Assembly (NCBI RefSeq): GCF_000011805.1
Contig: NC_006841.2
DNA length: 32,000 bases
Origin: Aliivibrio fischeri ES114
GTDB taxonomy: Bacteria; Pseudomonadota; Gammaproteobacteria; Enterobacterales; Vibrionaceae
Reading direction: 5' to 3' (one strand)
Shown here piece by piece: positions 4,305 through 20,368 of this stretch. Below the pieces are notes generated by a model that saw only the letters and a list, made by a program, of their open reading frames with translations, did not search any database and was not told where the DNA came from. Within the stretch, counting starts at the first letter, position 1; each line of letters begins with the position of its first letter. A program made the position numbers and the translations under genes.

Positions 4305-4916
4305 ATGGTTTTTAAACTCAATGAAATCTATTGGGATCCAGCAACAAAAAAATTGTACGATACGCTAGAAGATGCAGTTAATGGTAATAACGAATATGGT
4401 TCAACAACGCCTTTAGTTTCTGCAATTCTGACTTTGTTAATAAAAGAACATCCTTCTATTTGTAAAAATGAACATATTAAAGATGCTCTTTGGGGGACTC
4501 AGTGGATATCAAATGAAAGCATTCCTCAGTTAATTAAAAGAACAAGAGTATCAATAAAAGATACGAATAGACATGTTATCGAAAATGTAAAAGGCAATGG
4601 TTATAAAATAAACAATGTAGAAGAGATTAGAATAAATTCAAATAGCATACAATGCACAGAGAAAAAAACGTCACATTCTAAACTAAAAGAAACATCTATT
4701 TTTTTATTTTCAATCATCATTTTCATTTTATCTAGTTCAGCATTAATCTTTTGTATAGAAAAACATGTGTTTTACGATCTAATTCCTTTAGAAGAGATAA
4801 AAAAAGTCAAAGATTTTGATTTAATTAAAATCTCTGAAGATAAGTTTTTAATTAAGACTAAAGACCAAGAGTGTGAATTGAACCTTAAAAATAAAATTGC
4901 TCGATGTAAAATATGA
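4305..4916 (+). CDS. TcpP/ToxR-like membrane-anchored winged-helix transcriptional regulator
   Basis: N-terminal OmpR/PhoB-type wHTH (ALWGTQWISNESIPQLIKRTR ... VIENVKGNGYKI), closely resembling my recollection of V. cholerae TcpP. There is a single TM helix (SIFLFSIIIFILSSSALIFCI) and a short periplasmic tail with two Cys, C190 and C201, 11 residues apart, the second being 3 residues from the C-terminus. Confidence 0.75.
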   Translation: MVFKLNEIYWDPATKKLYDTLEDAVNGNNEYGSTTPLVSAILTLLIKEHPSICKNEHIKDALWGTQWISNESIPQLIKRTRVSIKDTNRHVIENVKGNGYKINNVEEIRINSNSIQCTEKKTSHSKLKETSIFLFSIIIFILSSSALIFCIEKHVFYDLIPLEEIKKVKDFDLIKISEDKFLIKTKDQECELNLKNKIARCKI

Positions 4917-5302
4917 AAAGTCAAATATCGAAAACATTAATTGTTTTTTCTGTAATTAATTTACTCATAATAATAATATGGCATAAATTTTATCGAGTCG
5001 ATTTAGTTGGAACAATAACAATAAATGAAAAACAAGTTAACTATGTAAAGTATGAAAAGTATTTAGATTCTGTCAATGTAGTTAATACTAAGTATAGTGA
5101 TGATATAGCTGTTCCTGCAACAAGTAGCGCAACAAAGTATTTTGTCGATTATAATTTATCTCAAGGTAAATTATATGCATATGATGGAACAAATTATTAT
5201 ATTTTAAATATATATTCATTAGGGGACTCTTGTTTTGTAACTCTTCCAGCAGGAAGTGGTAGTCTCAAAAAAATTGGTTTTTCTTGCAAATACAATAATT
5301 AA
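4913..5302 (+). CDS. TcpH/ToxS-like single-pass periplasmic partner protein
   Basis: The start overlaps the upstream stop (ATGA at 4913-4916). The 129-aa product has an N-terminal TM helix (TLIVFSVINLLIIIIW) and a periplasmic domain with two Cys (C107, C125) 18 residues apart. Size and topology match the TcpH/ToxS/VtrC partner class. Confidence 0.55.
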   Translation: MKSQISKTLIVFSVINLLIIIIWHKFYRVDLVGTITINEKQVNYVKYEKYLDSVNVVNTKYSDDIAVPATSSATKYFVDYNLSQGKLYAYDGTNYYILNIYSLGDSCFVTLPAGSGSLKKIGFSCKYNN

Positions 5303-5354
5303 TTTATTTTCAATAATTTGATTGTTATTTATAGAGTGTGTTTAGGGTACATAA

Positions 5355-7046
5355 TTGAATTCAACAATTTCTTTCTTATATCAACCAAAAGTACAGAATG
5401 GAAGTATTATCAGTGTTGAAGCTTTACTAAGAGTTCCTGGTGTTACAAATATTGAGAGCTATGTTTCAATGGTAACAAATAAACCTTTGTTTGATTATAC
5501 AATAATAAGGAAAGTATTATCAGATAGAAGGGAATATCACGAAAACATTGGTTACTCTTTCCCTGTATCTATAAACATTTCGATACAGAGTTTAGAATCA
5601 GATTATTTTATTAATAAAACATCTAAGTTATTGAAAAATGAACCTAATGTAACGTTGGAGATAACTGAAAATGACAGTTATTTATCTTTAGAACGTGTTA
5701 AAGAATCGATGGGAATACTTAAATCATTAGGTGTTAAGTTTTCTTTAGATGATTTTGGTAAAGGCTTTTCAGATATTGAACAAGTATTGTCATTAGACCT
5801 TGATGAAATCAAAGTGGATGGTTCTTTAGTTAATGATATTGAAAACAATTTTTATAAGTTTAGACATTTAAAATATACGCTAGATGAATTAGAAGATATC
5901 AGTAACTTTAATATTGTTATTGAGCGGGTTGAGAATAAAAAACAAGTTAACTTAATTGAATCCCTTGGAAAAAAAGTATCATACCAAGGATACTTTTTTT
6001 ATAAACCAATGAATTTATTTGACTTAACAATTGCGACACCAGAACCGCATAAAGAAGAAAAACATGAACCTAAGTTATTGTTAGAAAAATTGATTTATGA
6101 GTTGATCAAAACCGATAATGATAATGAGTGCGCACAGTTAGTTAATGATATTCACTCTGTAGATATATTTAATAATCTTGGTTCCAAGGTTTGTGACAGT
6201 TTAACTATAACAGAAGTAAAAAAAAGCATACTAAAAAAATACAATAAGATAGCGCTTAACCCGAATAGTCCTGAAAATTTGTTTTTCAAATCATATCTTA
6301 ATTGTATGAGTCGCTTAGTCATAATCCGAGATTCTGAAGGTAATGCTTTATTCAATAACCAAGCCCATATTAATTTTATGAATGTGGACTTGGTAGGAAT
6401 GCCTCTAGAAAGCATTTATGAAAAATTTGAACAATACGAAAGCTGTATTGCAATAGATAAGGAGTTGATTGAATCAAAATCCAACTTCTTAGCGGTAAGA
6501 GAAGTTGTCGACTTTGATGGGCAAACTAAATCGTATTATACGTTTAGGCAGAAAATTAACCATTATGGAAAAACACTAATAATTACGATTGTTTATGATG
6601 AAGATGATAGAGATTCGTTTCCTAGGGATGCATTAACAGATTGTTTTGATAGAACCATTTTGAACAGCTACTACATGAATCAATTTAACATGGTTGCTTT
6701 CATTGATATGGATGGGTTTAAAAAGATTAATGATAACTTCAGTCATAAGCTAGGTGACGACTGTTTAAGCAAATTTGTTATGTATTTAAAACATGAATTA
6801 AGAAAGGAAGACCTTATCATAAGATACGGTGGTGATGAATTTTTGATTTTTACTCAATGGGATGACCGACATACATTTGAAAGTCGCTTAAATCTGATAA
6901 GGAATAAAGTCGAAAAGCTGTTTAAATCAAACAACATAGACTTGTCATTTTCATATGGCATTGAAGATTTATCAAAAGGTATGGAAATTGCGATTAACTG
7001 TGCGGATGAAAAAATGTATGCTGACAAAAGCAGAAAATTACAGTGA
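5355..7046 (+). CDS. Cytoplasmic c-di-GMP turnover protein with inverted domain order EAL-PAS-GGDEF
   Basis: EAL motifs are all present: FLYQPKV, VEALLRV, VSINIS, LEITEND, FSLDDFGKGFS, EIKVDGS, ERVEN, YQGYFFYKP. The central region is PAS-like. The C-terminal GGDEF domain has FIDMDGFKKINDNFSHKLGDD, RYGGDEF (GGDEF at 6828-6842) and an I-site RKED (6801-6812) five residues upstream. The only start that keeps the EAL domain is TTG 5355, immediately after an in-frame stop, with AGGG 8 nt upstream. Confidence 0.85.
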   Translation: MNSTISFLYQPKVQNGSIISVEALLRVPGVTNIESYVSMVTNKPLFDYTIIRKVLSDRREYHENIGYSFPVSINISIQSLESDYFINKTSKLLKNEPNVTLEITENDSYLSLERVKESMGILKSLGVKFSLDDFGKGFSDIEQVLSLDLDEIKVDGSLVNDIENNFYKFRHLKYTLDELEDISNFNIVIERVENKKQVNLIESLGKKVSYQGYFFYKPMNLFDLTIATPEPHKEEKHEPKLLLEKLIYELIKTDNDNECAQLVNDIHSVDIFNNLGSKVCDSLTITEVKKSILKKYNKIALNPNSPENLFFKSYLNCMSRLVIIRDSEGNALFNNQAHINFMNVDLVGMPLESIYEKFEQYESCIAIDKELIESKSNFLAVREVVDFDGQTKSYYTFRQKINHYGKTLIITIVYDEDDRDSFPRDALTDCFDRTILNSYYMNQFNMVAFIDMDGFKKINDNFSHKLGDDCLSKFVMYLKHELRKEDLIIRYGGDEFLIFTQWDDRHTFESRLNLIRNKVEKLFKSNNIDLSFSYGIEDLSKGMEIAINCADEKMYADKSRKLQ

Positions 7047-8389
7047 GTTCTATTAGATATAAAGCATTAAGACTAAAAAGAATCGGCATTGTAGTGATGC
7101 TATCGTTTATTTATATGAGTGTCGGATATTTTATTTTTGATTTAAGCAATAACCTTACTGAAGAAAGAAATAAGACGAATATGCGACACTTATTGAAAAA
7201 ATATGAAAGTGAAATTTTAATAAAAGTAAATGAATACTTAACTTTATCAAAAGTTTATAAGTATATGCTTTTTAAGAATGATTCTTTTATATCAAAAAAC
7301 GACTTCACTTCAATATCTAAGAATTTAATCGAAAAAAACAAAGTAATTAAGAGTTTGCAATTAGCTCCTAATGGTACAGTGAAATATGCATATCCTGAGA
7401 AAGGAAATGAAAATGTGTATATCGATTTGTTTGCAGATAAAAAAAGAAGGGGAGATGCTATTTATGCCAGAGATAATAGAGTAAGTATCATGTCTGAACC
7501 ACTTGAGTTATTTCAAGGTGGGATTGGACTAATAATTCGTACTCCTATTTTTGTCGGCAAGGATTTTAATACATTTTGGGGTTTTAGCATCGTTATACTT
7601 AAGGTAAATGATTTTTTAAATACTTTATCATTACCTGAGTTATGTGATGGTGGATATAACTATAAACTGAGTGTTATACAAAGAAATAGCAATAACAAAA
7701 TTGTTATTAGTGAATCATCATCTGATGACTTAGTAAATGCAGTTGAGCATGAATTTAGTGTTCTTAACCAAAATTGGCTGATATCAGTGGGTTCTCCAGG
7801 TAAATGGATTAATGAATTAGAATATACCTACAAAACGTATATTTTAGTTTTCTTTGTCTTTGCTTTATCACTTATAACCTACATGTTTTACCGGTTGTTG
7901 ATAAAAAAAGAAAAAATGTATGAACTGTCTTATATTGATTCCTTAACAGGTCTTTATAATCGAAGGGCATTTGATAAAGATGCTAAAAAGTGTTTTAAGA
8001 GTTCAATTTTGTTTTTCTGTGATTTAAATGGTTTTAAAAAGATCAATGATATTTATGGTCATGAAGTCGGAGACCAACTACTCATTGAAGTATCTAAAAG
8101 GATGCGCTCTTTTATCGATAGTAAAGGAACTATATATAGATTAGGCGGCGATGAATTTTCAATACTCTTAAATAAAAATGATAATGTTGATGTTCATGTT
8201 TTTATTAATGAGTTATTTGAAATAATATCTGAGTCTTTATTAATTAGTGATGTTGTAATAAATATAAGCATTAGTACAGGTTACAGTGTTTATCCAGTTG
8301 ATGGCTTAATTCTAGAGGATTTAATCCGTATAGCTGATAAAAGAATGTATCAAGCAAAGTTTCAATATAAAAATAGAAATAAAGTATAA
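7043..8389 (+). CDS. Membrane diguanylate cyclase with periplasmic (CHASE-like) sensor domain
   Basis: The GTG start overlaps the upstream TGA (GTGA 7043-7046). Two TM helices flank a ~230-aa periplasmic domain (LQLAPNGTVKYAYPEKGNE...SEPLELFQGGIGLIIRTPIF), which I recall as CHASE-like. The GGDEF domain has FCDLNGFKKINDIYGHEVGD and RLGGDEF (8144-8158). No RxxD is present at the I-site position. Confidence 0.85.
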   Translation: MSSIRYKALRLKRIGIVVMLSFIYMSVGYFIFDLSNNLTEERNKTNMRHLLKKYESEILIKVNEYLTLSKVYKYMLFKNDSFISKNDFTSISKNLIEKNKVIKSLQLAPNGTVKYAYPEKGNENVYIDLFADKKRRGDAIYARDNRVSIMSEPLELFQGGIGLIIRTPIFVGKDFNTFWGFSIVILKVNDFLNTLSLPELCDGGYNYKLSVIQRNSNNKIVISESSSDDLVNAVEHEFSVLNQNWLISVGSPGKWINELEYTYKTYILVFFVFALSLITYMFYRLLIKKEKMYELSYIDSLTGLYNRRAFDKDAKKCFKSSILFFCDLNGFKKINDIYGHEVGDQLLIEVSKRMRSFIDSKGTIYRLGGDEFSILLNKNDNVDVHVFINELFEIISESLLISDVVINISISTGYSVYPVDGLILEDLIRIADKRMYQAKFQYKNRNKV

Positions 8390-8423
8390 ATCTAAAGTTC
8401 TGTTTCTTATTTATCTTATATAG

Positions 8424-8458
8424 ATAGTCATTTCCCTTTTTTGGGATGACTATTTTTT
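8424..8458 (+). terminator. Rho-independent terminator between the signalling operon and the receptor-synthase operon
   Basis: Stem atagtcat(tt)ccc / gggatgactat (11 bp with a 2-nt bulge), loop tttttt, followed by ttttt. It lies only about 50 nt upstream of the next start codon. Confidence 0.65.
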
Positions 8459-8509: not shown

Positions 8510-9862
8510 ATGAAGATGGAAAGTTCAGTGTCTATTCCTGTTTATGTTATCGGTGAATCTAAATCTGTGTATGGAAGTGATATTAATATAATTCATGTTA
8601 AGAGTGCTGATGCTCTTTTATTACACGAGCCAGCTATTTGTATTGTGTCATTACCATCTGAAGAACAAGATAGAACATTAGAATATCTGCATTCTAAATT
8701 ACAGCTATGGAATTGGCATATATATGTATTAAAAGCGAGCAAGTTAAGCTCTCATCTTTCCGATGGAGTATGGACACCGACTAATGTGGCTGAACAGTGG
8801 ATGCTACATAAAGCGAAGTTAGCTCTGATAAAAGATGAACCTCTGGATAAACTTCTTGCTTGGCTTTGGTTAGGCACTGAAAGGTGTTTAAAACCATTGT
8901 GTGATAGCAGTAAAAAAGAACTTTATCACTACCCTCTGATTACTGCGTACATTGGCTATAAAAATGCATCCAATAATTATCTTCAATTAGAAACTAAAAG
9001 AGGTTTTCTAAAGAAAGAGTATACAGTGGATCGAATTCGATTATGTCCATCGTGCAATAGCGGTCATCAAAACTATATTGAAACATGTCCATCATGTAAG
9101 AGTGTCGATATAGAAGAGATGGTTTCTCTACATTGTTTTACTTGCGGGCATGTAGGGAAACAAGACCACTTTATGCAACGTGGGAAATTAGAGTGTCCTA
9201 CTTGTTTAACACAGTTGCGTCATATTGGAGTGGATTACGACAGACCGCTTGAAAGCTATAAGTGTTTAGATTGTGATTATAGTTTTTCAGAATCGGTTGC
9301 TCGTGTTCGTTGCTTGTCTTGTACCGACAGTAATGAGATTGATGATTTAATCACCCGTCATATCAGTACCTATAAAGCGGGCGATCAAGTAAAAAACTTA
9401 ATGATGTATGGTCATCAATCTTTTCATCAAGAGTTGACGTTAAAAGGACTTATTGATGAGGATTCGTTTGATAATTTGCTTGTATGGATAAATAAATTGG
9501 CAATCCGTCATCAACACTCACATATCTTATTAGGTATAAAGCTCGCGGGTATTGAAGAATATTCTGCTCAATTTGGTGAAACTAAATTGATGCAATTGAT
9601 TGACCAGATATCAAATGATCTTAACTCAATACTACGTGATACCGATATTTGCTGCCAGTATCGATCAGATATGATCCTATTATTGATGCCGATGACTCCA
9701 ATTGACTCATTACCGGTGTTGCAAAAGAAGATTGAACTTATTGCTGGAAAAATTGAGTCAGAGTTAGTGCTTCTGAATGTTCATATATGGTCTTTGCCTA
9801 ATGTATCCCTTCAGGATGATGCGGCAAAGTGGTTAGTTGATGAGCTTGGTACTATTGAGTAA
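8510..9862 (+). CDS. Triple zinc-ribbon protein with C-terminal degenerate GGDEF domain retaining the I-site (candidate c-di-GMP receptor)
   Basis: Three CxxC-x10-14-CxxC pairs lie between nt 9044 and 9322. The C-terminal GGDEF-like fold has the active-site loop replaced by RSDMI (9662-9676), with RDTD (9635-9646) exactly 5 residues upstream. Its stop overlaps the GT2 start (TAATG). The start is uncertain: ATG 8510 is chosen, TTG 8483 or ATG 8516 are possible, and no strong RBS is visible. Confidence 0.75.
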   Translation: MKMESSVSIPVYVIGESKSVYGSDINIIHVKSADALLLHEPAICIVSLPSEEQDRTLEYLHSKLQLWNWHIYVLKASKLSSHLSDGVWTPTNVAEQWMLHKAKLALIKDEPLDKLLAWLWLGTERCLKPLCDSSKKELYHYPLITAYIGYKNASNNYLQLETKRGFLKKEYTVDRIRLCPSCNSGHQNYIETCPSCKSVDIEEMVSLHCFTCGHVGKQDHFMQRGKLECPTCLTQLRHIGVDYDRPLESYKCLDCDYSFSESVARVRCLSCTDSNEIDDLITRHISTYKAGDQVKNLMMYGHQSFHQELTLKGLIDEDSFDNLLVWINKLAIRHQHSHILLGIKLAGIEEYSAQFGETKLMQLIDQISNDLNSILRDTDICCQYRSDMILLLMPMTPIDSLPVLQKKIELIAGKIESELVLLNVHIWSLPNVSLQDDAAKWLVDELGTIE

Positions 9863-11175
9863 TGAGTGAATTTGAATACATTTTTTACTCAATAATAGGG
9901 ATGATAAGTGAAGATACAGAATTAATATTTATATTATTTCCAATCATGATCTTAATCGAAATGCCTCTATTTATTTTAGTTGCGAGCGGTGTTTTGCGTT
10001 GGTCTGTTAACTTATCAGAACTAGAAGCAACGTCATGTCCTTCAATTAGCTTTATTATTACTTGTTATGGAGAAGGGGAAGCCATTAGTGAAACGATCGA
10101 TACACTTGTCGAGCAGATTTATCCTAATAAGATAGAAATCTTAGTTGTAGTGGATGGTGCCAAACAAAATGCAGAGACTTATCAAGCAGCCTTATACGGT
10201 GCTAAAAAACATCAGCATAAGCAAATGCGGACAGTTAAAGTCATCGCTAAATGGCAAAGAGGTGGCCGTGTATCTACATTAAATGCTGGTTTATCGGAAG
10301 CAAAAAATGATTTAGTCATTAATGTTGATGGAGATACTTCATTTGACAACAACATGGCATGGGAAATGGCTAAGCAGTTTTCAGATCCAAACGTTTTAGC
10401 CTCTGGAGGTGCACTTCGTGTCCGAAATTGGGATGCTAATTTATTAACCAGAATGCAATCCCTTGAATATATGATGTCCATGCAGACGGGTAAAACTGGA
10501 ATGAGTAATTGGGGAGTCTTAAACAATATTTCTGGTGCTTTTGGTGCATTTCGGATTGAAGTGATTAAGCGAGTTGGTGGTTGGGATACTCATACGGCTG
10601 AAGATCTTGATTTAACCATGCGATTAAAACAATATAAAGGGCGACATCCAAATAGCCGTTTAGCATTTACTCCTCATTCTGTTGGGCATACTGATGCTCC
10701 AGATACGTTAAAAATATTGTTAATGCAGCGGTTACGATGGGATGGCGATTTACTTTTTCTCTTTTTAAGAAAACATAAACAGGGACTAAGTCCGAGTTTG
10801 TTAGGTTGGGGCAACTTTGTTTATACATTAGTTTATGGTGTGATTCAAAACGTGGTTCTACCATTATTAATGGCATTGTTTAGTTTATATGTTTGTTTAA
10901 GTTATCCAATTACATTTGTACTCTCAATGCTTTTGTTTATTTATCTAATATACATAACATTTATTGTTTTAACTTTTTCAATTTACATTGGTCTTGTTTC
11001 AGAAAGACCTAAAGAAGATATTAAATTATCAATATGGTTACCTCTTTATCCTATATATGCATTTTTTATGAGATTAATAACTGCATTTTCAATGGTGAAT
11101 GAAATAACCAGAAGAAGTCATGAGGAGTCAAGCATGGCACCTTGGTGGGTACTTAAACGTGGAAAAAGATTTTAA
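9862..11175 (+). CDS. Processive family-2 beta-glycosyltransferase (polysaccharide synthase, BcsA/PgaC/NodC/HAS class)
   Basis: Motifs present are DGD (10327-10335), TAED (10594-10605) and QRLRW (10726-10740). There is an N-terminal TM segment and several C-terminal TM helices. No PilZ-like extension is seen. Confidence 0.9.
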   Translation: MSEFEYIFYSIIGMISEDTELIFILFPIMILIEMPLFILVASGVLRWSVNLSELEATSCPSISFIITCYGEGEAISETIDTLVEQIYPNKIEILVVVDGAKQNAETYQAALYGAKKHQHKQMRTVKVIAKWQRGGRVSTLNAGLSEAKNDLVINVDGDTSFDNNMAWEMAKQFSDPNVLASGGALRVRNWDANLLTRMQSLEYMMSMQTGKTGMSNWGVLNNISGAFGAFRIEVIKRVGGWDTHTAEDLDLTMRLKQYKGRHPNSRLAFTPHSVGHTDAPDTLKILLMQRLRWDGDLLFLFLRKHKQGLSPSLLGWGNFVYTLVYGVIQNVVLPLLMALFSLYVCLSYPITFVLSMLLFIYLIYITFIVLTFSIYIGLVSERPKEDIKLSIWLPLYPIYAFFMRLITAFSMVNEITRRSHEESSMAPWWVLKRGKRF

Positions 11176-11180
11176 ATATT

Positions 11181-12224
11181 ATGAAAGTAAAATTTCACTT
11201 AGAAAAAGATAAGCAACCAACATCTGATAATGGAATGAAAATTATATACGGAAGTGCTAAGAGAGGTGGGTATAGATTTCGTTGGTATTGTATTTTAGCA
11301 TTAGTGTTAAGTCCTATATTAATAATGGCATACGTTTTTTTTCAACAATATATACTTACTTTAGCACCAGGGATTATTACAACAAGTCCAGTAGTGATAA
11401 CCGCTCCTCAAGATAGTATGGTTACAGCTATAAATGTCAAAGAAGGTAATCAGATTACCTATGGTCGGAATGTTTTAGAGTTAAATGATCCTGTATTAGA
11501 TTCAGATATTCAGTTTATTAAAACAGAGTTAACTAATTTAAATAAAAGGAAGTCTAAAGTACAACATGATCTAAAGTCTTATTTGTTAGCAATTAGAAAT
11601 GCGAAAGATAATTTAGAAAGCATAAAGAAAATAAAACTGAATTATGACAAGTTCATTAAAGAAGGGAAAGTATCACAAGTTGATTATGCCAATATCATTG
11701 GTATGTACAATAGTGCGCAAAATACGTTAACTAGTGCGGACATAGGATACCAAAAGGCACTATTAGACAGTGTGCAAGTTGAATTAGCTGGTGGTATTGC
11801 TCAAGTAGTTCGCTCATTAAATCAAGAGTTAGTTACCAAGTTAAGCCAGAAAAAACTACTAAGTATTCATTCACCATATGACGGAAATATCATAGAAATT
11901 AATACGGTAGTAGGACAAAGAATAAAAAAGGGTGATGTATTAGCGACGATTGCATCTAAGGCTGATCCATTTGTTATAGCGTACTTAGAACCTAAATTTA
12001 TTGAAAAGGCCAAAGAAGGTAGTGTCGTTACCGTCATACTTCCCAACCGTGAAAGATTAAAGGGTAATGTATCTTTAGCTATCGAAACCACAACTAAATT
12101 ACCAGCTCAGTTGGCTAAACCGTTTGAGGGACCAAAATCGTTGTTAAAAGTTAAAGTCACATTAAAGAAAAAAATAACTAAAGAGCAATGGGTAGAGGGG
12201 ATGCCAGTACAAGTTTCTTTTTAA
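11181..12224 (+). CDS. HlyD-family membrane fusion (periplasmic adaptor) protein
   Basis: Short cytoplasmic tail and one TM helix (WYCILALVLSPILIMAYVFF), followed by a lipoyl-like hairpin (VVITAPQDSMVTAINVKEGNQI ... IHSPYDGNIIEINTVVGQRIKKGDVLATIA) interrupted by a long predicted coiled coil. A C-terminal beta-rich domain follows. The gene starts 5 nt after the GT2 stop. Confidence 0.8.
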   Translation: MKVKFHLEKDKQPTSDNGMKIIYGSAKRGGYRFRWYCILALVLSPILIMAYVFFQQYILTLAPGIITTSPVVITAPQDSMVTAINVKEGNQITYGRNVLELNDPVLDSDIQFIKTELTNLNKRKSKVQHDLKSYLLAIRNAKDNLESIKKIKLNYDKFIKEGKVSQVDYANIIGMYNSAQNTLTSADIGYQKALLDSVQVELAGGIAQVVRSLNQELVTKLSQKKLLSIHSPYDGNIIEINTVVGQRIKKGDVLATIASKADPFVIAYLEPKFIEKAKEGSVVTVILPNRERLKGNVSLAIETTTKLPAQLAKPFEGPKSLLKVKVTLKKKITKEQWVEGMPVQVSF

Positions 12225-12292: not shown

Positions 12293-12541
12293 ATGAAAGT
12301 AGATTATATTCACTTAACAAATAAAATTTTAGATTCATGTGAATTTTTAAGGTTCGCAATAGAGAAAGATAATGAATTATTTAAAAATAACAAAGATACA
12401 ATATTAAAATTAATAAGTCTTAATGATTGGCTTATTAGTGAGTTATCAAGCTCTAATCTTAAAGATGAACAGCGTGAATTAATGCTAAGAAATTGTTTAA
12501 CTCTTAGTGAAATTACTAAAGAAGTTAGATTAGCTCTATAA
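12293..12541 (+). CDS. Small (82 aa) predicted all-helical protein of unknown function
   Basis: Good RBS (agagg, 7 nt before the ATG), co-directional with and located between the MFP and MCP genes. I recognise no motif. Confidence 0.5.
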   Translation: MKVDYIHLTNKILDSCEFLRFAIEKDNELFKNNKDTILKLISLNDWLISELSSSNLKDEQRELMLRNCLTLSEITKEVRLAL

Positions 12542-12606
12542 AATAAAATACTTACTATTATAAATTAGGATCTTAATGTTCTATTAGGATTATGGACGCG
12601 TGTAAT

Positions 12607-14235
12607 ATGAAAAACATTTCATTGAGAAATAAAATACTATTCCTAGTGGCATTTAATGCAACAGGTTTATTTGTGGCTCTTAATATTATTTATATGAACT
12701 ATGTAGATAATGATAAGACTGAACAGTTTTTATTTAGACAGGTAATTCAATCGTCAGAAATTTTTGATAATTTCGAAAAGAAACTAATTTCGTTAAGAAG
12801 AACAGATTTAGCTTTGATATCTATTCGATTTGAAGATGAAGAAGAGGTAACTGCAAGAGATAAGTTAATCTATGACATTAATTCATTATTAAATTCATAT
12901 AGTGAGTTTGATTTAGATGTGATAAAAAAAGAGAAAACACAATTAGCAACGCTAAACAATGAAATTAACGCATATGTTAATTACATCAATGATATTAGAG
13001 ATCGTCGATTATCAGAACCAAGAGCGAAACTAGTTGGTGATAGTCTCGGATTATATGAAGAAATTAATAATAATATTAGCTACTTATCTAATAAGATAAA
13101 TATCTTCCTTGAAGAATACAGACAGACATCTAAACAAGACCGATTGAACACACTGTATTTTGCAATATTTATTATTGTATCGATAACACTGGTATCAATC
13201 TTAAGTGGTTTATACATCTCAAAAGATTTAAATCGACGTATCGCGTTAATTAACTCATCATTAGATCAGTTTATTTCGTTAGATTTGAGAAGTGGGAAAG
13301 TGTGTAGCTTCATTGATAGTAACGATTTTATTAATGACGAAATCGGTAGCATTATGATGTCTATTCGCTCTTTCAGATTAAAAATTGTGACAGTAATTAA
13401 TGCAGTTAAAGAGAGTATTGAGGTTAGTAATGATGCATTTAGTTTGATGAATGAGCAGTCTAAAGAAAACGAGAAGGCCATTGTTCAACAGCTTAACTCT
13501 GTTGATATGCTTGCAACAGCGATCAATGAAATGCAATGTGCATCAAGTGAGATTACAAATAATATCAATAACTCCGCGAACTTTACTTCTGACGCATCTA
13601 AAGAGTGTAATCAAACTAAGCAAATGGTTTCTAATACCTCTGAAGTGATTAATCTAGCTTCAAATGAGATCGATGAATGTAATGCCTTGATTGCGGAATT
13701 ACGTAACGACAGTAATAAGATTTCAAGTGTTTTAGATATGATCAGTAATATTGCGGATCAAACAAACTTATTAGCACTAAACGCAGCAATTGAAGCAGCA
13801 AGAGCTGGTGAGCAAGGAAGAGGTTTTGCGGTAGTTGCTGATGAAGTTCGTGTATTAGCGCAAAAAACACAACATTCTACGATTGAGATTAATAATATCA
13901 TTTCAAACTTACAGGCTAAAACTCATGATGTAAGTGAAAAAATGGAGTTGAGTCAGACAACGATTAAAGAGTGTGTAGAACAGTCGACAATATCTCGAAA
14001 TAATATTGAAATTGTAGATAACAACTTAAACTCAATTTCAGATATGAGTCATCAAATATCCACAGCAAGTGAAGAGCAGAGCTGTGTTATTGAAGAAATT
14101 AACGGAAACGCGATTAACGTGAGAGACATGTCTCAAGTGTGTATGGATGTATCGAGTGTGATTTCTGAACAGGTTAAGAACATGAATAAGAGCATTTCTA
14201 ATTTGTCGAAAAACGTAGAGCAGTTTAAATTGTAG
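12607..14235 (+). CDS. Methyl-accepting chemotaxis protein
   Basis: Two TM helices flank a ~160-aa helical periplasmic domain. The highly conserved signalling hairpin is present ([39 protein letters not shown]). The start is set at MKNISLRNK (12607); an alternative ATG lies at 12592. Confidence 0.9.
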
Positions 14236-16956: not shown

Positions 16957-18663
16957 TTAAAAATCTTCAGGGCACGAGAATTCAACCGTCTCATTGGTTG
17001 TCGGGTGTTTGAATTTTAAATATCCAGCATGTAAATGCAGCCTATCTGCTTTAAAACCATACAAATCATCCCCCACAATAGGGGTATTCAATCCCGCTTG
17101 ATGAGCGCAATGAACACGCAATTGATGCGTTCGCCCCGTATGTGGGTAAAGGTGTACTTTGGTTCGTTTGCCTTCTTGAGCGATGACTTGGTAATGTGTT
17201 TCTGCTTTACGGCCACTTTTATGGTTGACCATTTGGCGAGGACGATCTTCCATATCACCTGTTAACGGTAAATTAATCGTCCCATTATCGGTTTCAATAT
17301 TACCTTCAAGTAATGCGGTATAACGCTTTTCAACCGTACGTTCGATAAATTGTTTTTGAACCTGTTTATTCGATTCAGCAGTTAATGTAAGAACCAATAA
17401 ACCAGAGGTCGACATATCTAAACGATGAACAATCAATGGTCCTGTTGCGTTAGGGTAACGAGCTTGAATACGAGCATGAACAGAATCTGAAATGTATTTT
17501 CCAGATACGGATAAAAACTCGACGGGCTTATTGACGATAACAAGCACATCGTCTTCATATACGATCTCTAATTCTTTACCATAAGACGGAGTTTGCTCTA
17601 ATGGGCTGCCGTCTGTGCTTATTCCTTCAAGCATGTGCTCTAGAATTTCAAAACATTTACTTTGGCATACCGGATAAAGGTTTTTATGCTGGCGAATTTG
17701 ATCATAAGGAGACGCTCCCCACCAAAATTCCCCTAAGGCTAAAGGCGTATAACCCAATGTAAACGCAGTTTGTAAAAGTTTAGGACAGTTTTGTTCACTG
17801 GAATTGGCAATAGGCTCTTGTTTCAGTTGGTCTGAATCACTGCGCTTAAATAAGTCGAATAGGCTTTTAATTACGCCATTTGAATTAAGAAATTGGGTTG
17901 CTTTTAACGTATCAATATGACGTTGTTGTACCAAATTATCATACGTTAATTCCGCTTGTGAAATGCGATACTCATTTTCTTTGAGTTGAGTAGAGAGCGT
18001 CAAAAGCGTGTTTTGCCAATCTTGCTTTAATTGTTTAAATGCTCTTTTTTCTCGACTGCTTTGGTTTCCAAGCTCAGAGATAAGAGCACTTAAATCATCA
18101 GGAGTCAGAGGGGATAGAGTATTTGACTCTGCCTCTGCACGTTGTTGCTTACGTTGCTTTTTAGAGTCCGCCATAGCCTGTTGAAATTGGGTGATTTCAT
18201 GTTCAGCTTGCTGTTGATTAGCGGACAGTTTTTCTTTTAGCTCAATAAACTCTGGGTCATTTTTTAATTGATGAATATGACTTTTTAGATGTTGTAACTC
18301 TGTTCTTTGTTGAGCACAAAGAGAATCGTGATTCGTTTTATCAAAAATAGCATCAACAAAAAAATCAGGCGTGTGGCTTAATTCAGGTTGTTTATCTGCT
18401 TCTTGAGCGGCAAAAGAAGCAAGATAACCAATCTCGCCATCTTGGTTTTTAACTACCAATACACCAAACATTTTTCCGTTAACGGTAAAGTCGTGTTGCC
18501 ACTCATTTTGAGTATCTAAATAGAGTTGCAGATCATCCATTGCTAATCTTGCTAATGGGTGAGGTGTATAATAATACGGGAACGTAAAATGTTGAGGCAG
18601 AGTAATACCGTCAATATCACCAGATAAACGAATAAATTTGTGGGTTAATGTATTGTTACACAT
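16957..18663 (-). CDS. Long-form RluA-family pseudouridine synthase, paralogue 1 (about 370-aa N-terminal extension)
   Basis: The C-terminal ~200 aa carry RluA motifs (HRLDMSTSGLLVL, GRTHQLRVHCAH, HLHA). The N-terminal extension is shared with the upstream paralogue. The start is set at ATG 18663 (MCNNTL...) because it aligns with the paralogue's N-terminus and avoids a 20-nt overlap; an alternative ATG lies at 18687. Confidence 0.85.
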   Translation of the reverse strand: MCNNTLTHKFIRLSGDIDGITLPQHFTFPYYYTPHPLARLAMDDLQLYLDTQNEWQHDFTVNGKMFGVLVVKNQDGEIGYLASFAAQEADKQPELSHTPDFFVDAIFDKTNHDSLCAQQRTELQHLKSHIHQLKNDPEFIELKEKLSANQQQAEHEITQFQQAMADSKKQRKQQRAEAESNTLSPLTPDDLSALISELGNQSSREKRAFKQLKQDWQNTLLTLSTQLKENEYRISQAELTYDNLVQQRHIDTLKATQFLNSNGVIKSLFDLFKRSDSDQLKQEPIANSSEQNCPKLLQTAFTLGYTPLALGEFWWGASPYDQIRQHKNLYPVCQSKCFEILEHMLEGISTDGSPLEQTPSYGKELEIVYEDDVLVIVNKPVEFLSVSGKYISDSVHARIQARYPNATGPLIVHRLDMSTSGLLVLTLTAESNKQVQKQFIERTVEKRYTALLEGNIETDNGTINLPLTGDMEDRPRQMVNHKSGRKAETHYQVIAQEGKRTKVHLYPHTGRTHQLRVHCAHQAGLNTPIVGDDLYGFKADRLHLHAGYLKFKHPTTNETVEFSCPEDF

Positions 18664-18667
18664 GACA

Positions 18668-20368
18668 TTAAAATTCCGCTTCGACATTAAATTCCATCGG
18701 TTCTTTAGTGATAGGATGAATTAACGACAAATAACCTGCATGCAAATGTAAGCGATTTGCTTTTTTTCCATATAAACCATCACCGGTGATTGGCATATTT
18801 AAACCAAGATAATGAGCACAATGCACTCTAAGTTGATGCGTTCGACCTGTTTTAGGGTAAAGATAGACTTTGGTTTTATTCTCCTTACGCTCAATCACTT
18901 GGTAGGTGGTTTCCGCTGGTTTCCCATGCTCAAAACACACTAATTGGCGAGGGCGATCATATAAATCACCACGCATAGGCAAAGTAATTAGTCCTTCATC
19001 TTGTTCTAAAACGCCATCAAGTAGAGCTGTGTAGCGCTTTTCTACCGTTCGATTAATAAATTGTTGTTGTAAGCGTTTGTGTGCTTTTGGCGTAAGGCCT
19101 AAAACCAGTAATCCTGATGTTGCCATATCCAAGCGATGAATTATTAACCCGCCAGTTGCATCGGGGTAACGTTGTTGTATGCGTGCATAAACCGAATCGT
19201 GAATGTTTTTACCTGGAACAGATAAGAAGTCAGCTGGTTTATTGACCACAACCATAAATTCATCTTCATAGACGATTTCAAGATCTTTCCCTTCTGCTGG
19301 GTTGATAAGCAGTGGGTTCTCATCCATTTCTATTCCATCTAGCATATGACCTAAAATTGGCTGGCATTTACTCTGACATGACGCATAGAATTTTTTATGT
19401 TGGCGGATTTCAGATTTTGGGGCAATACCCCACCAAAACTCCGCCAGTGCAAGTGGTGTGAAACCATGTGCAAAGGCATATTGAAGTAATTTAGGTGCAG
19501 CGCATTCGCCGGAACCGGCTGGTGGGATCTGGTTTGGTGTATCTTTGAAAATATCGTTAAGATCTTTCTCAATACCATGTGTATTTAAAAACTTGTATTG
19601 CTGAAATAATTTCTTTTGTAATCCGTTAGATAGATTTTTTCGCTTGGTTTTTAATTCATTAAGTGCGTCTTCTAACTCATTAAGTTGGCATTGAAGGGCG
19701 TTTATTTTTTCGTCCCAAATGAGTTTAATATCACGTAAAGTATTTTTTTCTTTAACGCTTTCTTTGCCAAGTACAACTTTGAGTTGTTCTAATTCCTCTG
19801 CACTTTTTTCAGTACCATCTTGAGCTGTGATTTCAGCCGCTGCTCGTTGTGCTTTACGAGATTTTCGCCCTTCAATCATTACTTGGCGTTGAATTTCTAT
19901 CTGTTGTAGTGAGGCAGTGGTTTCGGATTGGATAGAGGTCGCTAAGTGAGATAATTGTGGATTAGCTTCGAGCTGTTTAATTGTTGCATTGATCTCTGTG
20001 ATTTCTGCAAGTTCTGTTTTGAAAAAACCGTCTTCTTCCAGCATATCAAATACAGGTGGTACAAAATAAGGGAGATGATTACTGTCAGCAATTTTGCCTG
20101 AGAAAGCGGATAAATAGCCAATTTCCCCCGTTGGTGCTTTCACTAATAATACACCAAACATTTTACCAATCGCATTGCTTTTATCACCAGATAGGCCGAA
20201 ATTATGATGCCATTCTTGTTGCGCTTCTAAGTGACGTTGTAACTCTTCTGCTGCAAGTTCACATAAAGGATGTGGTTCATAACAAAAAGGGAAAGTGAAT
20301 TTTTCAGGAAGTGTATAACCGTCGATAGGCTGAGTAAATGAAGTAAAACAAGGGTTGGAGATAGGCAT
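18668..20368 (-). CDS. Long-form RluA-family pseudouridine synthase, paralogue 2
   Basis: It has the same architecture as paralogue 1: HRLDMATSGLLVL (Asp414), GRTHQLRVHCAH, an N-terminal FTFPFCYEPHPL...GKMFGVLLV...GEIGYLSAFSG block, a ~150-aa coiled coil and the block ECAAPKLLQ...FWWG...SCQSKCQPILGHML. Confidence 0.85.
   Translation of the reverse strand: MPISNPCFTSFTQPIDGYTLPEKFTFPFCYEPHPLCELAAEELQRHLEAQQEWHHNFGLSGDKSNAIGKMFGVLLVKAPTGEIGYLSAFSGKIADSNHLPYFVPPVFDMLEEDGFFKTELAEITEINATIKQLEANPQLSHLATSIQSETTASLQQIEIQRQVMIEGRKSRKAQRAAAEITAQDGTEKSAEELEQLKVVLGKESVKEKNTLRDIKLIWDEKINALQCQLNELEDALNELKTKRKNLSNGLQKKLFQQYKFLNTHGIEKDLNDIFKDTPNQIPPAGSGECAAPKLLQYAFAHGFTPLALAEFWWGIAPKSEIRQHKKFYASCQSKCQPILGHMLDGIEMDENPLLINPAEGKDLEIVYEDEFMVVVNKPADFLSVPGKNIHDSVYARIQQRYPDATGGLIIHRLDMATSGLLVLGLTPKAHKRLQQQFINRTVEKRYTALLDGVLEQDEGLITLPMRGDLYDRPRQLVCFEHGKPAETTYQVIERKENKTKVYLYPKTGRTHQLRVHCAHYLGLNMPITGDGLYGKKANRLHLHAGYLSLIHPITKEPMEFNVEAEF

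What the first reader, a model, noticed from the sequence alone, without database searches (positions are those of the whole stretch)
8510..9862. Triple zinc-ribbon protein with catalytically dead GGDEF domain but a perfectly placed RxxD I-site
Seen, point 1: twelve Cys form three CxxC-x10-14-CxxC pairs between nt 9044 and 9322 (CPSC-x10-CPSC, CFTC-x14-CPTC, CLDC-x12-CLSC), which are three tandem rubredoxin-like zinc ribbons. Seen, point 2: the C-terminal ~150 aa follow the GGDEF fold by eye (ILLGIKLAGIEEYSAQFGETKLMQLIDQIS...LRDTDICCQYRSDMILLLMP). However, the GG[DE]EF loop is RSDMI (9662-9676), and the usual D-x-D-x-FK metal and substrate segment is K-L-A-G-I-E, so cyclase activity is not expected. 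Seen, point 3: RDTD (9635-9646) lies exactly five residues upstream of the degenerate loop, which is the I-site position. Established: degenerate GGDEF domains that keep RxxD act as c-di-GMP receptors (PelD, PopA, PssE, BcsE GIL). Inference: this is the c-di-GMP sensor that gates the downstream synthase. The role of the zinc ribbons (redox or metal sensing, nucleic-acid binding or protein docking) and of the N-terminal ~100-aa alpha/beta-looking region (possibly a degenerate receiver, without the phospho-acceptor Asp pattern) is open. I vaguely recall a multi-CxxC domain annotated in Vibrio GGDEF-type proteins (TackOD1) but cannot verify whether it applies here.
Basis: partly seen in the sequence, partly recalled or inferred. 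Interest (0 to 1): 0.8.

Follow-up and report, generated by a model that had tools for sequence, protein, structure and literature searches.

The report
MxdA-type c-di-GMP receptor of Vibrio fischeri

Summary
ORF 8510-9862 (450 aa) has six invariant CxxC motifs inside a TackOD1 domain (Pfam E=2.9e-70). Its C-terminal domain has a GGDEF fold (TM 0.70 to a solved cyclase domain). The catalytic loop is RSDMI, the metal and GTP residues are lost, and RDTD sits exactly at the I-site position.

RxxD is nearly invariant in 119 close homologs and is kept in 131 of 148 distant representatives. It is kept or lost together with K/R407, the position of PleD R390. No homolog examined has a GG loop.

The window is V. 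fischeri chromosome II, directly after VF_A0475/VF_A0476. The gene heads a conserved three-gene module (receptor, GT2 synthase, membrane-fusion protein), found in 21 loci from five genera.

The module corresponds to mxdABC of Shewanella oneidensis. MxdA is 35% identical (E=1e-82) with the same architecture, MxdB is 53% identical and MxdC 30%. Held papers cite MxdA as a proven c-di-GMP-binding effector thought to activate the Mxd exopolysaccharide machinery.

The protein is therefore a new member of a known kind. Still open are the role of TackOD1, its invariant HIGVDYDRPLE loop, and the absence of this protein and a nearby paralog from the published V. fischeri c-di-GMP census.

The parts
8510..9862 (+). 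MxdA-like gene (450 aa): N-terminal alpha/beta domain, then TackOD1, then a degenerate GGDEF domain. By position it is presumably VF_A0477 (locus tag not verified).
   Evidence: ORF and translation. Pfam TackOD1 E=2.9e-70 plus a sub-threshold GGDEF hit. 35% identity and E=1e-82 to S. oneidensis MxdA P0321. No hydrophobic segment, so predicted soluble.
8510..8824 (+). N-terminal alpha/beta domain (aa 1-105), possibly a pseudo-receiver. S47 occupies the position where a receiver would carry its phospho-acceptor Asp.
   Evidence: AF2 pLDDT 85-97. Best Foldseek hit is receiver domain 2qxy_B (prob 0.82, TMt 0.50, E=0.18). No Response_reg Pfam hit, and hhalign against CheY gives prob 0.1. Position 47 is Asp in only 39/150 representatives.
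8825..9376 (+). TackOD1 domain (aa 106-289).
   Evidence: PF18551, 236 bits against a cut-off of 32, covering 4-187 of 188 profile positions. No significant solved-structure relative by sequence or fold.
9044..9322 (+). Six CxxC motifs (12 Cys), predicted to form three Zn-ribbon-like sites.
   Evidence: Seen directly in the sequence. Invariant in close and distant homologs. Weak sub-threshold DZR and Zn_ribbon_6 Pfam hits.
9215..9253 (+). Invariant loop L236-RHIGVDYDRPLE-248, between the fourth and fifth CxxC motifs.
   Evidence: H238, I239, G240, D242, Y243 and D244 are invariant in 119 close homologs. D242 and Y243 are conserved in 149/150 distant representatives. This is the lowest-pLDDT stretch of the domain.
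9422..9859 (+). Degenerate GGDEF-fold domain (aa ~305-450).
   Evidence: Foldseek PDB: 4urg_A TMt 0.70, E=3e-8, and 88 hits at E<=0.001, with every one of the 50 hits listed a GGDEF/diguanylate cyclase structure. Family profile versus PDB E=8e-6.
9635..9646 (+). RDTD (R376-D379): an RxxD motif at the I-site position.
   Evidence: Aligns to the RRSD I-site of 4urs. R is conserved in 116/119 and D in 118/119 close homologs. RxxD is retained in 131/148 distant representatives.
9662..9676 (+). RSDMI: the degenerate counterpart of the GG[DE]EF catalytic loop.
   Evidence: Aligned to GGDEF of 4urs. None of 148 distant representatives has a GG loop, and none of the 119 close homologs does either.
9728..9730 (+). 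K407: the predicted third I-site residue, at the position of PleD R390.
   Evidence: The PDB profile alignment to PleD has a constant offset for positions 376, 379 and 407. K or R is found here in 131/148 representatives and co-varies with RxxD (2x2 table [[126,5],[5,12]], Fisher p=2e-10).
9862..11175 (+). MxdB-like processive GT2 synthase (437 aa). Its start codon overlaps the receptor gene's stop by 1 nt (TAATG).
   Evidence: Pfam GT2 families, and NCBIfam PgaC_IcaA at 150 bits (below its 422-bit cut-off). Nearest solved proteins are hyaluronan synthase (1e-9) and chitin synthase. QRLRW motif, transmembrane segments and gene junction. 53% identical to MxdB.
11107..11172 (+). Near-invariant C-terminal tail of the GT2: RRSHEESSMAPWWVLKRGKRF.
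   Evidence: Present in 22/22 loci that include the GT2 C-terminus, across five genera.
11181..12224 (+). MxdC-like membrane-fusion (HlyD-type) protein (347 aa) with one N-terminal membrane anchor.
   Evidence: Pfam HlyD_3, HlyD_D23 and Biotin_lipoyl_2. 30% identical to MxdC over its full length, E=5e-57. Hydrophobic segment at residues 33-59.
8422..8455 (+). Terminator-like hairpin with a U-tract between VF_A0476 and the mxdA-like gene.
   Evidence: RNA fold -15 kcal/mol, z=-4.1 against shuffles. Sequence read.
12293..12541 (+). 82-aa ORF with a GAGG ribosome-binding site, specific to Aliivibrio. It may be a fourth gene but is not an MxdD homolog.

Best explanation
The gene encodes an MxdA-type c-di-GMP receptor. 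It is a soluble three-domain protein: an N-terminal alpha/beta domain (possibly a pseudo-receiver), TackOD1 with three predicted Zn sites, and a catalytically dead GGDEF domain.

c-di-GMP binds the retained inhibitory site of the dead cyclase domain, formed by R376 and D379 of RDTD plus K407. The liganded protein then switches on the co-translated membrane machine encoded immediately downstream. That machine is a processive GT2 synthase (MxdB-like) and a periplasmic membrane-fusion adaptor (MxdC-like). Together they polymerise and export a biofilm exopolysaccharide, probably a beta-linked hexosamine-type polymer.

Shown here: the fold, the loss of catalytic residues, I-site register and conservation, operon conservation, and homology to the S. 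oneidensis mxdABC products.

Taken from the literature: MxdA binds c-di-GMP, interacts with CheY3 and the cyclase PdgA, and mxd genes are needed for three-dimensional biofilm and pellicle.

Inferred: binding goes through the I-site, activation works by protein contact with the GT2 (possibly its invariant C-terminal tail), TackOD1 is a zinc-stabilised docking module, and the polymer chemistry.
For: Identity of the window: published primers for VF_A0475 and VF_A0476 match exactly at 5355 and 7097 (PMC11575326).

Domains: TackOD1 E=2.9e-70 and a GGDEF fold with TM 0.70.

Dead active site: K343 replaces the metal-binding Asp and RSDMI replaces GGDEF. No GG loop occurs in 148 distant representatives.

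I-site: R376 116/119 and D379 118/119. RxxD and K/R407 co-vary, Fisher p=2e-10.

Synteny: receptor then GT2 then MFP in 18/18 Vibrionaceae loci, including a paralog, and also in Aeromonas, V. cholerae and S. oneidensis. The receptor stop and GT2 start overlap by 1 nt.

[quoted passage not shown] Published Pmxd primers map 308 and 154 bp upstream of that gene. Pairwise identities are 35% (MxdA), 53% (MxdB) and 30% (MxdC), each covering most or all of the protein length. MxdA has the same Pfam architecture.

Literature: MxdA binds c-di-GMP and is the presumed activator of the Mxd machinery (PMC7666153, PMC11395469). mxdA and mxdB mutants fail to aggregate or form biofilm (PMC3691769).
Against: No binding data exist for the V. 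fischeri protein.

I could not read the primary MxdA papers, so I do not know whether I-site mutants were tested.

The third I-site residue is Lys here rather than Arg. Position 370, which is Arg in 98/119 close homologs, is Asp in this protein.

An earlier study, as cited in held papers, concluded that MxdA modulates cellular c-di-GMP levels indirectly. That does not fit a pure receptor role (PMC3691769, PMC3672883).

The co-variation test does not correct for shared ancestry.

Nothing here shows contact between the receptor and the GT2. The polymer is unknown.
Confidence: 0.75

Rival explanations
1. Signalling hub rather than synthase switch. The protein mainly scaffolds diguanylate cyclases and a CheY-type regulator and feeds back on local or global c-di-GMP levels. 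Activation of the GT2 would be secondary or absent.
For: Held papers cite MxdA as indirectly modulating c-di-GMP levels (PMC3691769, PMC3672883) and as interacting with CheY3 and the cyclase PdgA (PMC7666153). In the window, a cyclase (VF_A0476) and an EAL-GGDEF protein (VF_A0475) lie directly upstream and an MCP gene lies directly downstream. The N-terminus is weakly receiver-like.
Against: The only universally conserved neighbours are the GT2 and the MFP. The cyclase, PDE and MCP neighbours are confined to Aliivibrio or vary between loci. The start/stop overlap with the GT2 gene suggests co-production with it. This hub role is also compatible with the main explanation rather than excluding it.
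Confidence: 0.1
2. c-di-GMP-responsive nucleic-acid-binding regulator. The three zinc ribbons of TackOD1 would bind DNA or RNA and control expression of the operon or other genes.
For: Zinc ribbons bind nucleic acids in TFIIB, TFS, RecR and PriA, and weak non-significant matches to such proteins appear. TackOD1 is an output domain of archaeal response regulators (PMC5847659).
Against: All of those matches are non-significant (E>0.1). Some archaeal proteins carry REC-wHTH-TackOD1 (PMC5847659), which suggests TackOD1 is not itself the DNA-binding part. The strict synteny and translational coupling with a membrane synthase across five genera resemble post-translational receptors such as PelD, PssE and YdaK.
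Confidence: 0.07
3. Unconventional but active diguanylate cyclase, as the database name 'diguanylate cyclase' implies.
For: NCBI names many family members 'diguanylate cyclase'. D387 at the third loop position is conserved in 101/119 close homologs.
Against: The GG of the loop, the metal-binding Asp (K343 here) and the guanine-contacting Asn and Asp positions are all replaced. No member of about 270 examined has a GG loop. Pfam GGDEF is below its threshold. The V. fischeri census of 50 DGC/PDE proteins does not include this protein.
Confidence: 0.03

Closest known systems
MxdA (SO_4180) of the Shewanella oneidensis MR-1 mxdABCD operon
   Same: The architecture is the same: TackOD1 plus a sub-threshold GGDEF domain. 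Identity is 35% over 406 residues, E=1e-82. RxxD (RVTD in MxdA), a degenerate loop (TRDGL) and Lys at the third I-site position are all present. The downstream genes match: GT2 53% identical to MxdB and MFP 30% identical to MxdC. The receptor and GT2 genes overlap in both organisms.
   Different: There is no MxdD homolog; the small downstream ORF is unrelated and specific to Aliivibrio. V. fischeri carries two copies of the module about 14 kb apart. The flanking genes differ: here a cyclase and a PDE upstream and an MCP downstream. No experimental data exist for the V. fischeri protein.
I-site receptors with a degenerate GGDEF domain next to a synthase: PelD (Pseudomonas), PssE (Listeria), YdaK (Bacillus)
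   Same: A dead GGDEF domain keeps RxxD five residues before the former catalytic loop, and it is encoded beside a glycosyltransferase or synthase that it is thought to activate post-translationally (PMC4125290, PMC7112168 and PMC9800504 came up in the literature searches; I did not open them, so the comparison rests mainly on my own knowledge of these families).
   Different: PelD, PssE and YdaK are membrane-anchored and have GAF or other N-terminal regions. This protein is predicted soluble and has TackOD1 plus an alpha/beta domain instead. The third I-site residue is Lys rather than Arg. The relationship is an analogy of mechanism through a shared GGDEF fold, not orthology.
BgsA/BgsB(/TolC) mixed-linkage beta-glucan system of rhizobia
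   Same: A processive GT2 synthase is paired with an HlyD-type membrane-fusion protein and activated by c-di-GMP. A tripartite complex with TolC has been proposed (PMC13438883, PMC5567048).
   Different: In Bgs, c-di-GMP binds a C-terminal domain of the synthase itself. Here the GT2 has no recognisable binding domain and a separate receptor gene precedes it. I did not test homology between the two GT2/MFP pairs.
Archaeal REC-TackOD1 response regulators (e.g. NKOR_04565)
   Same: Both have a TackOD1 domain with conserved CxxC motifs, preceded by a roughly 110-residue alpha/beta domain (PMC5847659).
   Different: The archaeal proteins have a genuine receiver domain and no GGDEF domain. Here the N-terminal domain has no receiver sequence signature, and a GGDEF-fold domain is appended.

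Membership tests
MxdA family (TackOD1 + degenerate GGDEF effector of the Mxd machinery) | Sequence homology to S. oneidensis MxdA across most of its length | tested here: met
   BLASTP gives 35% identity over 406 aa, E=1e-82. P0321 was identified as MxdA by its source names and by Pmxd primers mapping 154 and 308 bp upstream of the gene.
MxdA family (TackOD1 + degenerate GGDEF effector of the Mxd machinery) | Same domain architecture | tested here: met
   TackOD1 scores 236 bits here and 239 bits in MxdA. GGDEF scores 23.7 and 22.5 bits, both just below the 23.8-bit cut-off.
MxdA family (TackOD1 + degenerate GGDEF effector of the Mxd machinery) | Operon with an MxdB-type GT2 and an MxdC-type membrane-fusion protein | tested here: met
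   53% and 30% full-length identity. The gene order is conserved in 21 loci.
MxdA family (TackOD1 + degenerate GGDEF effector of the Mxd machinery) | Fourth gene, mxdD | tested here: not met
   The 82-aa ORF has no similarity to MxdD. The small downstream ORFs are unrelated between genera, so mxdD is not a conserved part of the module.
MxdA family (TackOD1 + degenerate GGDEF effector of the Mxd machinery) | Binds c-di-GMP | not testable with these tools
   Reported for MxdA (Gambari 2019, as cited in PMC7666153 and PMC11395469). Needs biochemistry for this protein.
GGDEF domain / diguanylate cyclase (PF00990) | GGDEF (palm-like) fold | tested here: met
   Foldseek: 4urg_A TMt 0.70, E=3e-8, and every one of the 50 PDB hits listed is a GGDEF domain.
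GGDEF domain / diguanylate cyclase (PF00990) | Pfam gathering score | tested here: not met
   23.7 bits against a cut-off of 23.8, and only profile positions 25-108 of 161 are matched.
GGDEF domain / diguanylate cyclase (PF00990) | Catalytic GG[DE]EF loop and metal-binding Asp | tested here: not met
   The loop is RSDMI and K343 replaces the Asp. No GG loop occurs in the family.
I-site (RxxD) c-di-GMP receptors with a degenerate GGDEF domain | RxxD five residues upstream of the former catalytic loop | tested here: met
   R376-D-T-D379, then ICCQY, then RSDMI. It aligns to the RRSD I-site of 4urs and is conserved in 116-118 of 119 close homologs.
I-site (RxxD) c-di-GMP receptors with a degenerate GGDEF domain | Third basic residue (PleD R390 / PelD R402 position) | tested here: met
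   K407 here; K or R in 131/148 representatives, and it co-varies with RxxD. The register follows from the constant offset of the PleD alignment. Lys instead of Arg is a conservative difference.
I-site (RxxD) c-di-GMP receptors with a degenerate GGDEF domain | Measured c-di-GMP binding that depends on RxxD | not testable with these tools
   Requires DRaCALA, ITC or MST with R376A, D379A and K407A mutants.
TackOD1 (PF18551) | Pfam gathering score and the conserved Cys pattern | tested here: met
   236 bits against a cut-off of 32. Six CxxC motifs here, compared with five CXXC plus one HXXC described for the family (PMC5847659).
TackOD1 (PF18551) | Zinc binding and three-ribbon geometry | not testable with these tools
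Needs ICP-MS or a structure.
Receiver (REC) domain | CheY-like fold | tested here: inconclusive
   The best Foldseek hit is a receiver (2qxy_B, prob 0.82, TMt 0.50), but E=0.18.
Receiver (REC) domain | Sequence signature and phospho-acceptor Asp | tested here: not met
   No Response_reg Pfam hit. hhalign against CheY gives prob 0.1. S47 occupies the end of the third strand, a position that is Asp in only 39/150 representatives.
PgaC/IcaA PNAG synthase (for the downstream GT2) | NCBIfam equivalog cut-off | tested here: not met
   150.7 bits against a cut-off of 422.3. It is related to PgaC/IcaA but is not a PgaC ortholog.

The most novel reading that the evidence does not exclude
TackOD1 may not be a passive zinc scaffold. 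It could be the true output or second-input module of a three-input switch.

In this reading, its invariant but poorly modelled HIGVDYDRPLE loop, held by three zinc sites, docks onto the equally invariant C-terminal tail of the GT2 (RRSHEESSMAPWWVLKRGKxF), or senses redox or metal status. c-di-GMP at the I-site and a CheY-type partner at the pseudo-receiver would control its exposure.

That would give the first function for TackOD1. By extension it would suggest how archaeal REC-TackOD1 regulators, found in type IV pilus loci, act on membrane machines.

It would also mean V. fischeri has two unrecognised c-di-GMP-gated exopolysaccharide systems. These could be fed locally by the adjacent cyclase VF_A0476, which showed no phenotype in global assays.
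Probability: 0.15. Interest if true: 0.6.

Novelty: new member of a known kind. Interest (0 to 1): 0.35.

Why it matters
The verdict assigns a V. fischeri gene of unstated function to an experimentally studied effector family (MxdA). It predicts a c-di-GMP-controlled exopolysaccharide system, in two copies, in a model symbiont whose biofilm polysaccharides (syp, cellulose) and c-di-GMP network are under active study.

The published census of 50 c-di-GMP proteins in this organism includes neither MxdA-like protein. The effector side of its network is therefore incomplete.

The family-wide analysis adds a specific, testable binding triad (R376/D379/K407), which agrees with the reported c-di-GMP binding by MxdA.

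It also flags two unexplained invariant elements: the TackOD1 loop and the GT2 tail. These are the obvious places to look for the still unknown function of TackOD1, a domain shared with archaeal response regulators.

Tried and rejected

Model coordinates are not exposed. I could not measure Cys-Cys distances, decide between sequential and interleaved zinc ligation, or check I-site geometry.

Primary MxdA papers (Gambari 2019, Rakshe 2011) are not held. A search for 'NVDEF' found no paper.

Searches for VF_A0477 to VF_A0479 found no paper.

The TackOD1 sequence logo in the supplement of PMC5847659 is an image. I could not tell whether the HIGVDYDRPLE loop is also conserved in archaeal members.

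Two synteny look-ups (Idiomarina, Aestuariirhabdus) returned no record.

Considered and rejected:
- Active cyclase: the catalytic residues are absent.
- PelD, PssE or YdaK orthology: the N-terminal architecture differs and there is no membrane anchor.
- PgaC orthology of the GT2: the score is below the cut-off.
- The 82-aa ORF as MxdD: there is no similarity.
Full report
**1. The observation**

The ORF at 8510-9862 (+) is real and encodes 450 residues. A 98%-identical 450-aa protein is called in Aliivibrio fischeri genomes.

The twelve cysteines sit at the stated coordinates (nt 9044-9322) as six CxxC motifs. The only error is the middle spacing, which is CFTC-x16-CPTC rather than x14. All twelve are invariant or nearly invariant in 119 close homologs and are Cys in 146-149 of 150 highly divergent representatives.

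RDTD (376-379, nt 9635-9646), the five-residue spacer ICCQY and RSDMI (385-389, nt 9662-9676) are as described.

**2. The C-terminal domain is a dead GGDEF domain with a conserved I-site**

Pfam GGDEF scores 23.7 bits against a cut-off of 23.8. Structure settles the fold question. An AlphaFold2 model built on 81 sequences has mean pLDDT 89.6. Its Foldseek hits in the PDB are all diguanylate cyclase domains: 4urg_A at E=3e-8 and TM 0.70 normalised to the target, followed by PleD, WspR, SiaD and DgcB.

A profile of the family matches solved cyclases at E=8e-6. The printed alignment places the family's R-D-T-D on the RRSD inhibitory site of the T. maritima enzyme, K-E-D-V-L (RSDMI here) on GGDEF, and K343-L-A-G-I-E on D-L-A-G-F-K. 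The glycines of the loop and the metal-binding Asp are therefore gone, and so are the guanine-contacting positions. Cyclase activity is not expected.

None of the 119 close homologs or 148 distant representatives has a GG loop. In contrast, R376 is conserved in 116/119 and D379 in 118/119 close homologs. RxxD survives in 131 of 148 representatives that share only 26-42% identity with the query.

K407 falls at the position of PleD R390, the third I-site residue. The profile alignment to PleD chains has the same offset for positions 376, 379 and 407, and an illustrative alignment agrees. That position is K or R in 131/148 representatives and is kept or lost together with RxxD: 126 have both, 12 have neither, and 5 fall in each mixed class (Fisher p=2e-10). 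The test ignores shared ancestry. Even so, the pattern is what one composite ligand site predicts.

**3. Genomic identity and context**

Primer sequences published for VF_A0475 and VF_A0476 match the window exactly at 5355 and 7097. The window is therefore V. fischeri ES114-like chromosome II. The target gene directly follows the EAL-GGDEF gene VF_A0475 and the CHASE-GGDEF cyclase gene VF_A0476.

It is not among the 50 c-di-GMP proteins analysed in that study, whose gene list runs from VF_A0398 to VF_A0475/0476 and then to VF_A0506.

A hairpin with a U-tract at 8422-8455 (-15 kcal/mol, z=-4.1) separates it from VF_A0476, so it probably heads its own transcription unit.

Its stop codon overlaps the start of a 437-aa GT2 by one base (TAATG). 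That GT2 has a QRLRW motif and N- and C-terminal membrane segments. Its nearest solved relatives are hyaluronan synthase and chitin synthase, and its best NCBIfam match is PgaC/IcaA, far below that family's cut-off. Five bases further on starts a 347-aa HlyD-type membrane-fusion protein with a single N-terminal anchor.

The order receptor, GT2, MFP holds in all 18 Vibrionaceae loci with enough flank. One of these is a second copy in the same A. fischeri contig, 14 kb upstream of the target and just outside the window. The order also holds in Aeromonas veronii, V. cholerae and S. oneidensis.

**4. It is the mxd operon**

The layout recalled the mxdABCD biofilm operon of Shewanella oneidensis, so I tested that recollection. 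[quoted passage not shown] In its locus, the published Pmxd-fw-300 and Pmxd-fw-150 primers match 308 and 154 bp upstream of the start codon, which confirms the gene is mxdA.

MxdA has the same Pfam profile as the window protein (TackOD1 239 bits, GGDEF 22.5 bits) and is 35% identical over 406 residues (E=1e-82). It carries RVTD, a degenerate loop (TRDGL) and Lys at the third site.

The window GT2 is 53% identical to MxdB over its full length and the MFP is 30% identical to MxdC. There is no MxdD counterpart. The 82-aa ORF at 12293-12541 is conserved only in Aliivibrio, and the small downstream ORFs of Shewanella, Aeromonas and V. cholerae are unrelated to one another. The conserved core is therefore three genes.

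According to held papers:
- The mxd genes are required for three-dimensional biofilm and aggregation (PMC3691769).
- MxdA is a 'degenerated GGDEF protein' that affects c-di-GMP levels indirectly (PMC3672883, PMC3409153, citing Rakshe 2011).

I could not read the two primary papers.

**5. Mechanism**

The best-supported model is a soluble receptor with no hydrophobic segment. It binds c-di-GMP at R376/D379/K407 of its dead cyclase domain and then activates the co-produced GT2/MFP synthase-exporter by protein contact.

Shown: the fold, the loss of the active site, the I-site conservation, the synteny and the homology to mxdABC.

From the literature: ligand binding by the Shewanella homolog.

Inferred: the I-site is the binding site, the output is the GT2, and the product is a beta-linked hexosamine-type polymer.

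A plausible contact point is the GT2 C-terminal tail RRSHEESSMAPWWVLKRGKxF. It is almost invariant in all 22 loci that include it, although the GT2s are only 53-70% identical overall.

By analogy with BgsA/BgsB/TolC (PMC13438883), the MFP may bridge to an outer-membrane channel.

**6. What remains unexplained**

TackOD1 has no significant solved relative by fold or sequence. The paper that defined the domain called its function obscure. That paper's supplement already notes that TackOD1 is often fused to GGDEF domains in bacteria.

Besides the cysteines, its most conserved feature is the loop L236-RHIGVDYDRPLE-248 (D242 and Y243 in 149/150 distant representatives). This is also the least confidently modelled part of the domain (pLDDT 61-73), as expected for a partner- or ligand-binding loop.

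The N-terminal 105 residues fold as an alpha/beta domain. Its best but non-significant structural match is a receiver domain (prob 0.82, TM 0.50, E=0.18). There is no receiver sequence signal, and the position where a phospho-acceptor would sit is Ser here and Asp in only a quarter of representatives. The resemblance to archaeal REC-TackOD1 regulators (PMC5847659) is suggestive but unproven.

**7. Rivals**

- Signalling hub. This role is compatible with the literature and with the Aliivibrio-specific cyclase, PDE and MCP neighbours, but only the GT2 and MFP are universally linked.
- Nucleic-acid-binding regulator. It rests only on non-significant zinc-ribbon matches.
- Active cyclase. The missing catalytic residues contradict it.

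**8. Verdict**

However, the protein belongs to a family that is already described experimentally (MxdA) and in databases ('TackOD1 domain-containing metal-binding protein').

It is a new member of a known kind.

Its value lies in annotation: two overlooked c-di-GMP effector/EPS modules in V. fischeri. It also provides testable details, namely the I-site triad, the TackOD1 loop and the GT2 tail.

Interest is 0.35.

Noticed in passing
L005:8001-11712 (same A. fischeri contig, about 14 kb upstream of the target gene and about 5.5 kb before the window start): A second, paralogous receptor/GT2/MFP module (56%, 63% and 54% identity to the window proteins). V. fischeri therefore has two mxdABC-like operons. 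Neither receptor appears in the published 50-protein c-di-GMP census (PMC11575326).
   Followed up: partly
window 11107-11172: The GT2 C-terminal tail RRSHEESSMAPWWVLKRGKRF is almost invariant in 22/22 loci from Aliivibrio, Vibrio, Photobacterium, Shewanella and Aeromonas, although the GT2s are only 53-70% identical overall. It is a candidate docking or gating element.
   Followed up: partly
window 9215-9253: The invariant TackOD1 loop L-R-H-I-G-V-D-Y-D-R-P-L-E is the most conserved non-Cys block in the protein, yet it is the lowest-confidence stretch of both AF2 models. Its function is unknown.
   Followed up: partly
L021:6001-7389 (S. oneidensis mxdA), residues ~357-361: MxdA contains the sequence NVDEF. 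From memory, the older literature treated this as its degenerate GGDEF motif; I could not verify that. In alignments it falls on the beta1/metal-site segment (the DxLxxFK position). The true loop equivalent is TRDGL, which follows RVTD.
   Followed up: partly
window 4305-8389: A tightly packed upstream cluster with overlapping stops and starts: a ToxR-like Trans_reg_C protein (203 aa), a 129-aa ORF, VF_A0475 (EAL-GGDEF) and VF_A0476 (CHASE-GGDEF). It ends at the hairpin at 8422-8455. VF_A0475 and VF_A0476 gave no phenotype when overexpressed in the published screen, which would fit a local role towards the adjacent receptor. This is speculation.
   Followed up: no
window 12592-14235: A methyl-accepting chemotaxis protein gene lies directly downstream of the module, conserved in Aliivibrio loci L001-L004. 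This is notable because Shewanella MxdA interacts with CheY3.
   Followed up: no
window 12293-12541: An 82-aa ORF with a GAGG ribosome-binding site, conserved only in Aliivibrio (86% and 47% identity). It has no Pfam hit and is unrelated to MxdD.
   Followed up: yes
window 16957-20368 (-) and L021:4801-5718: Two adjacent, unusually long PseudoU_synth_2 genes (576 and 566 aa) lie in the window. A PseudoU_synth_2 gene also sits immediately upstream of mxdA in S. oneidensis. This is probably coincidence.
   Followed up: no
window 9617-9619 (residue 370): Position 370, six residues before the I-site Arg, is Arg in 98/119 close homologs but Asp in this protein. If that Arg contributes to ligand binding in the family, this copy may bind differently.
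   Followed up: no
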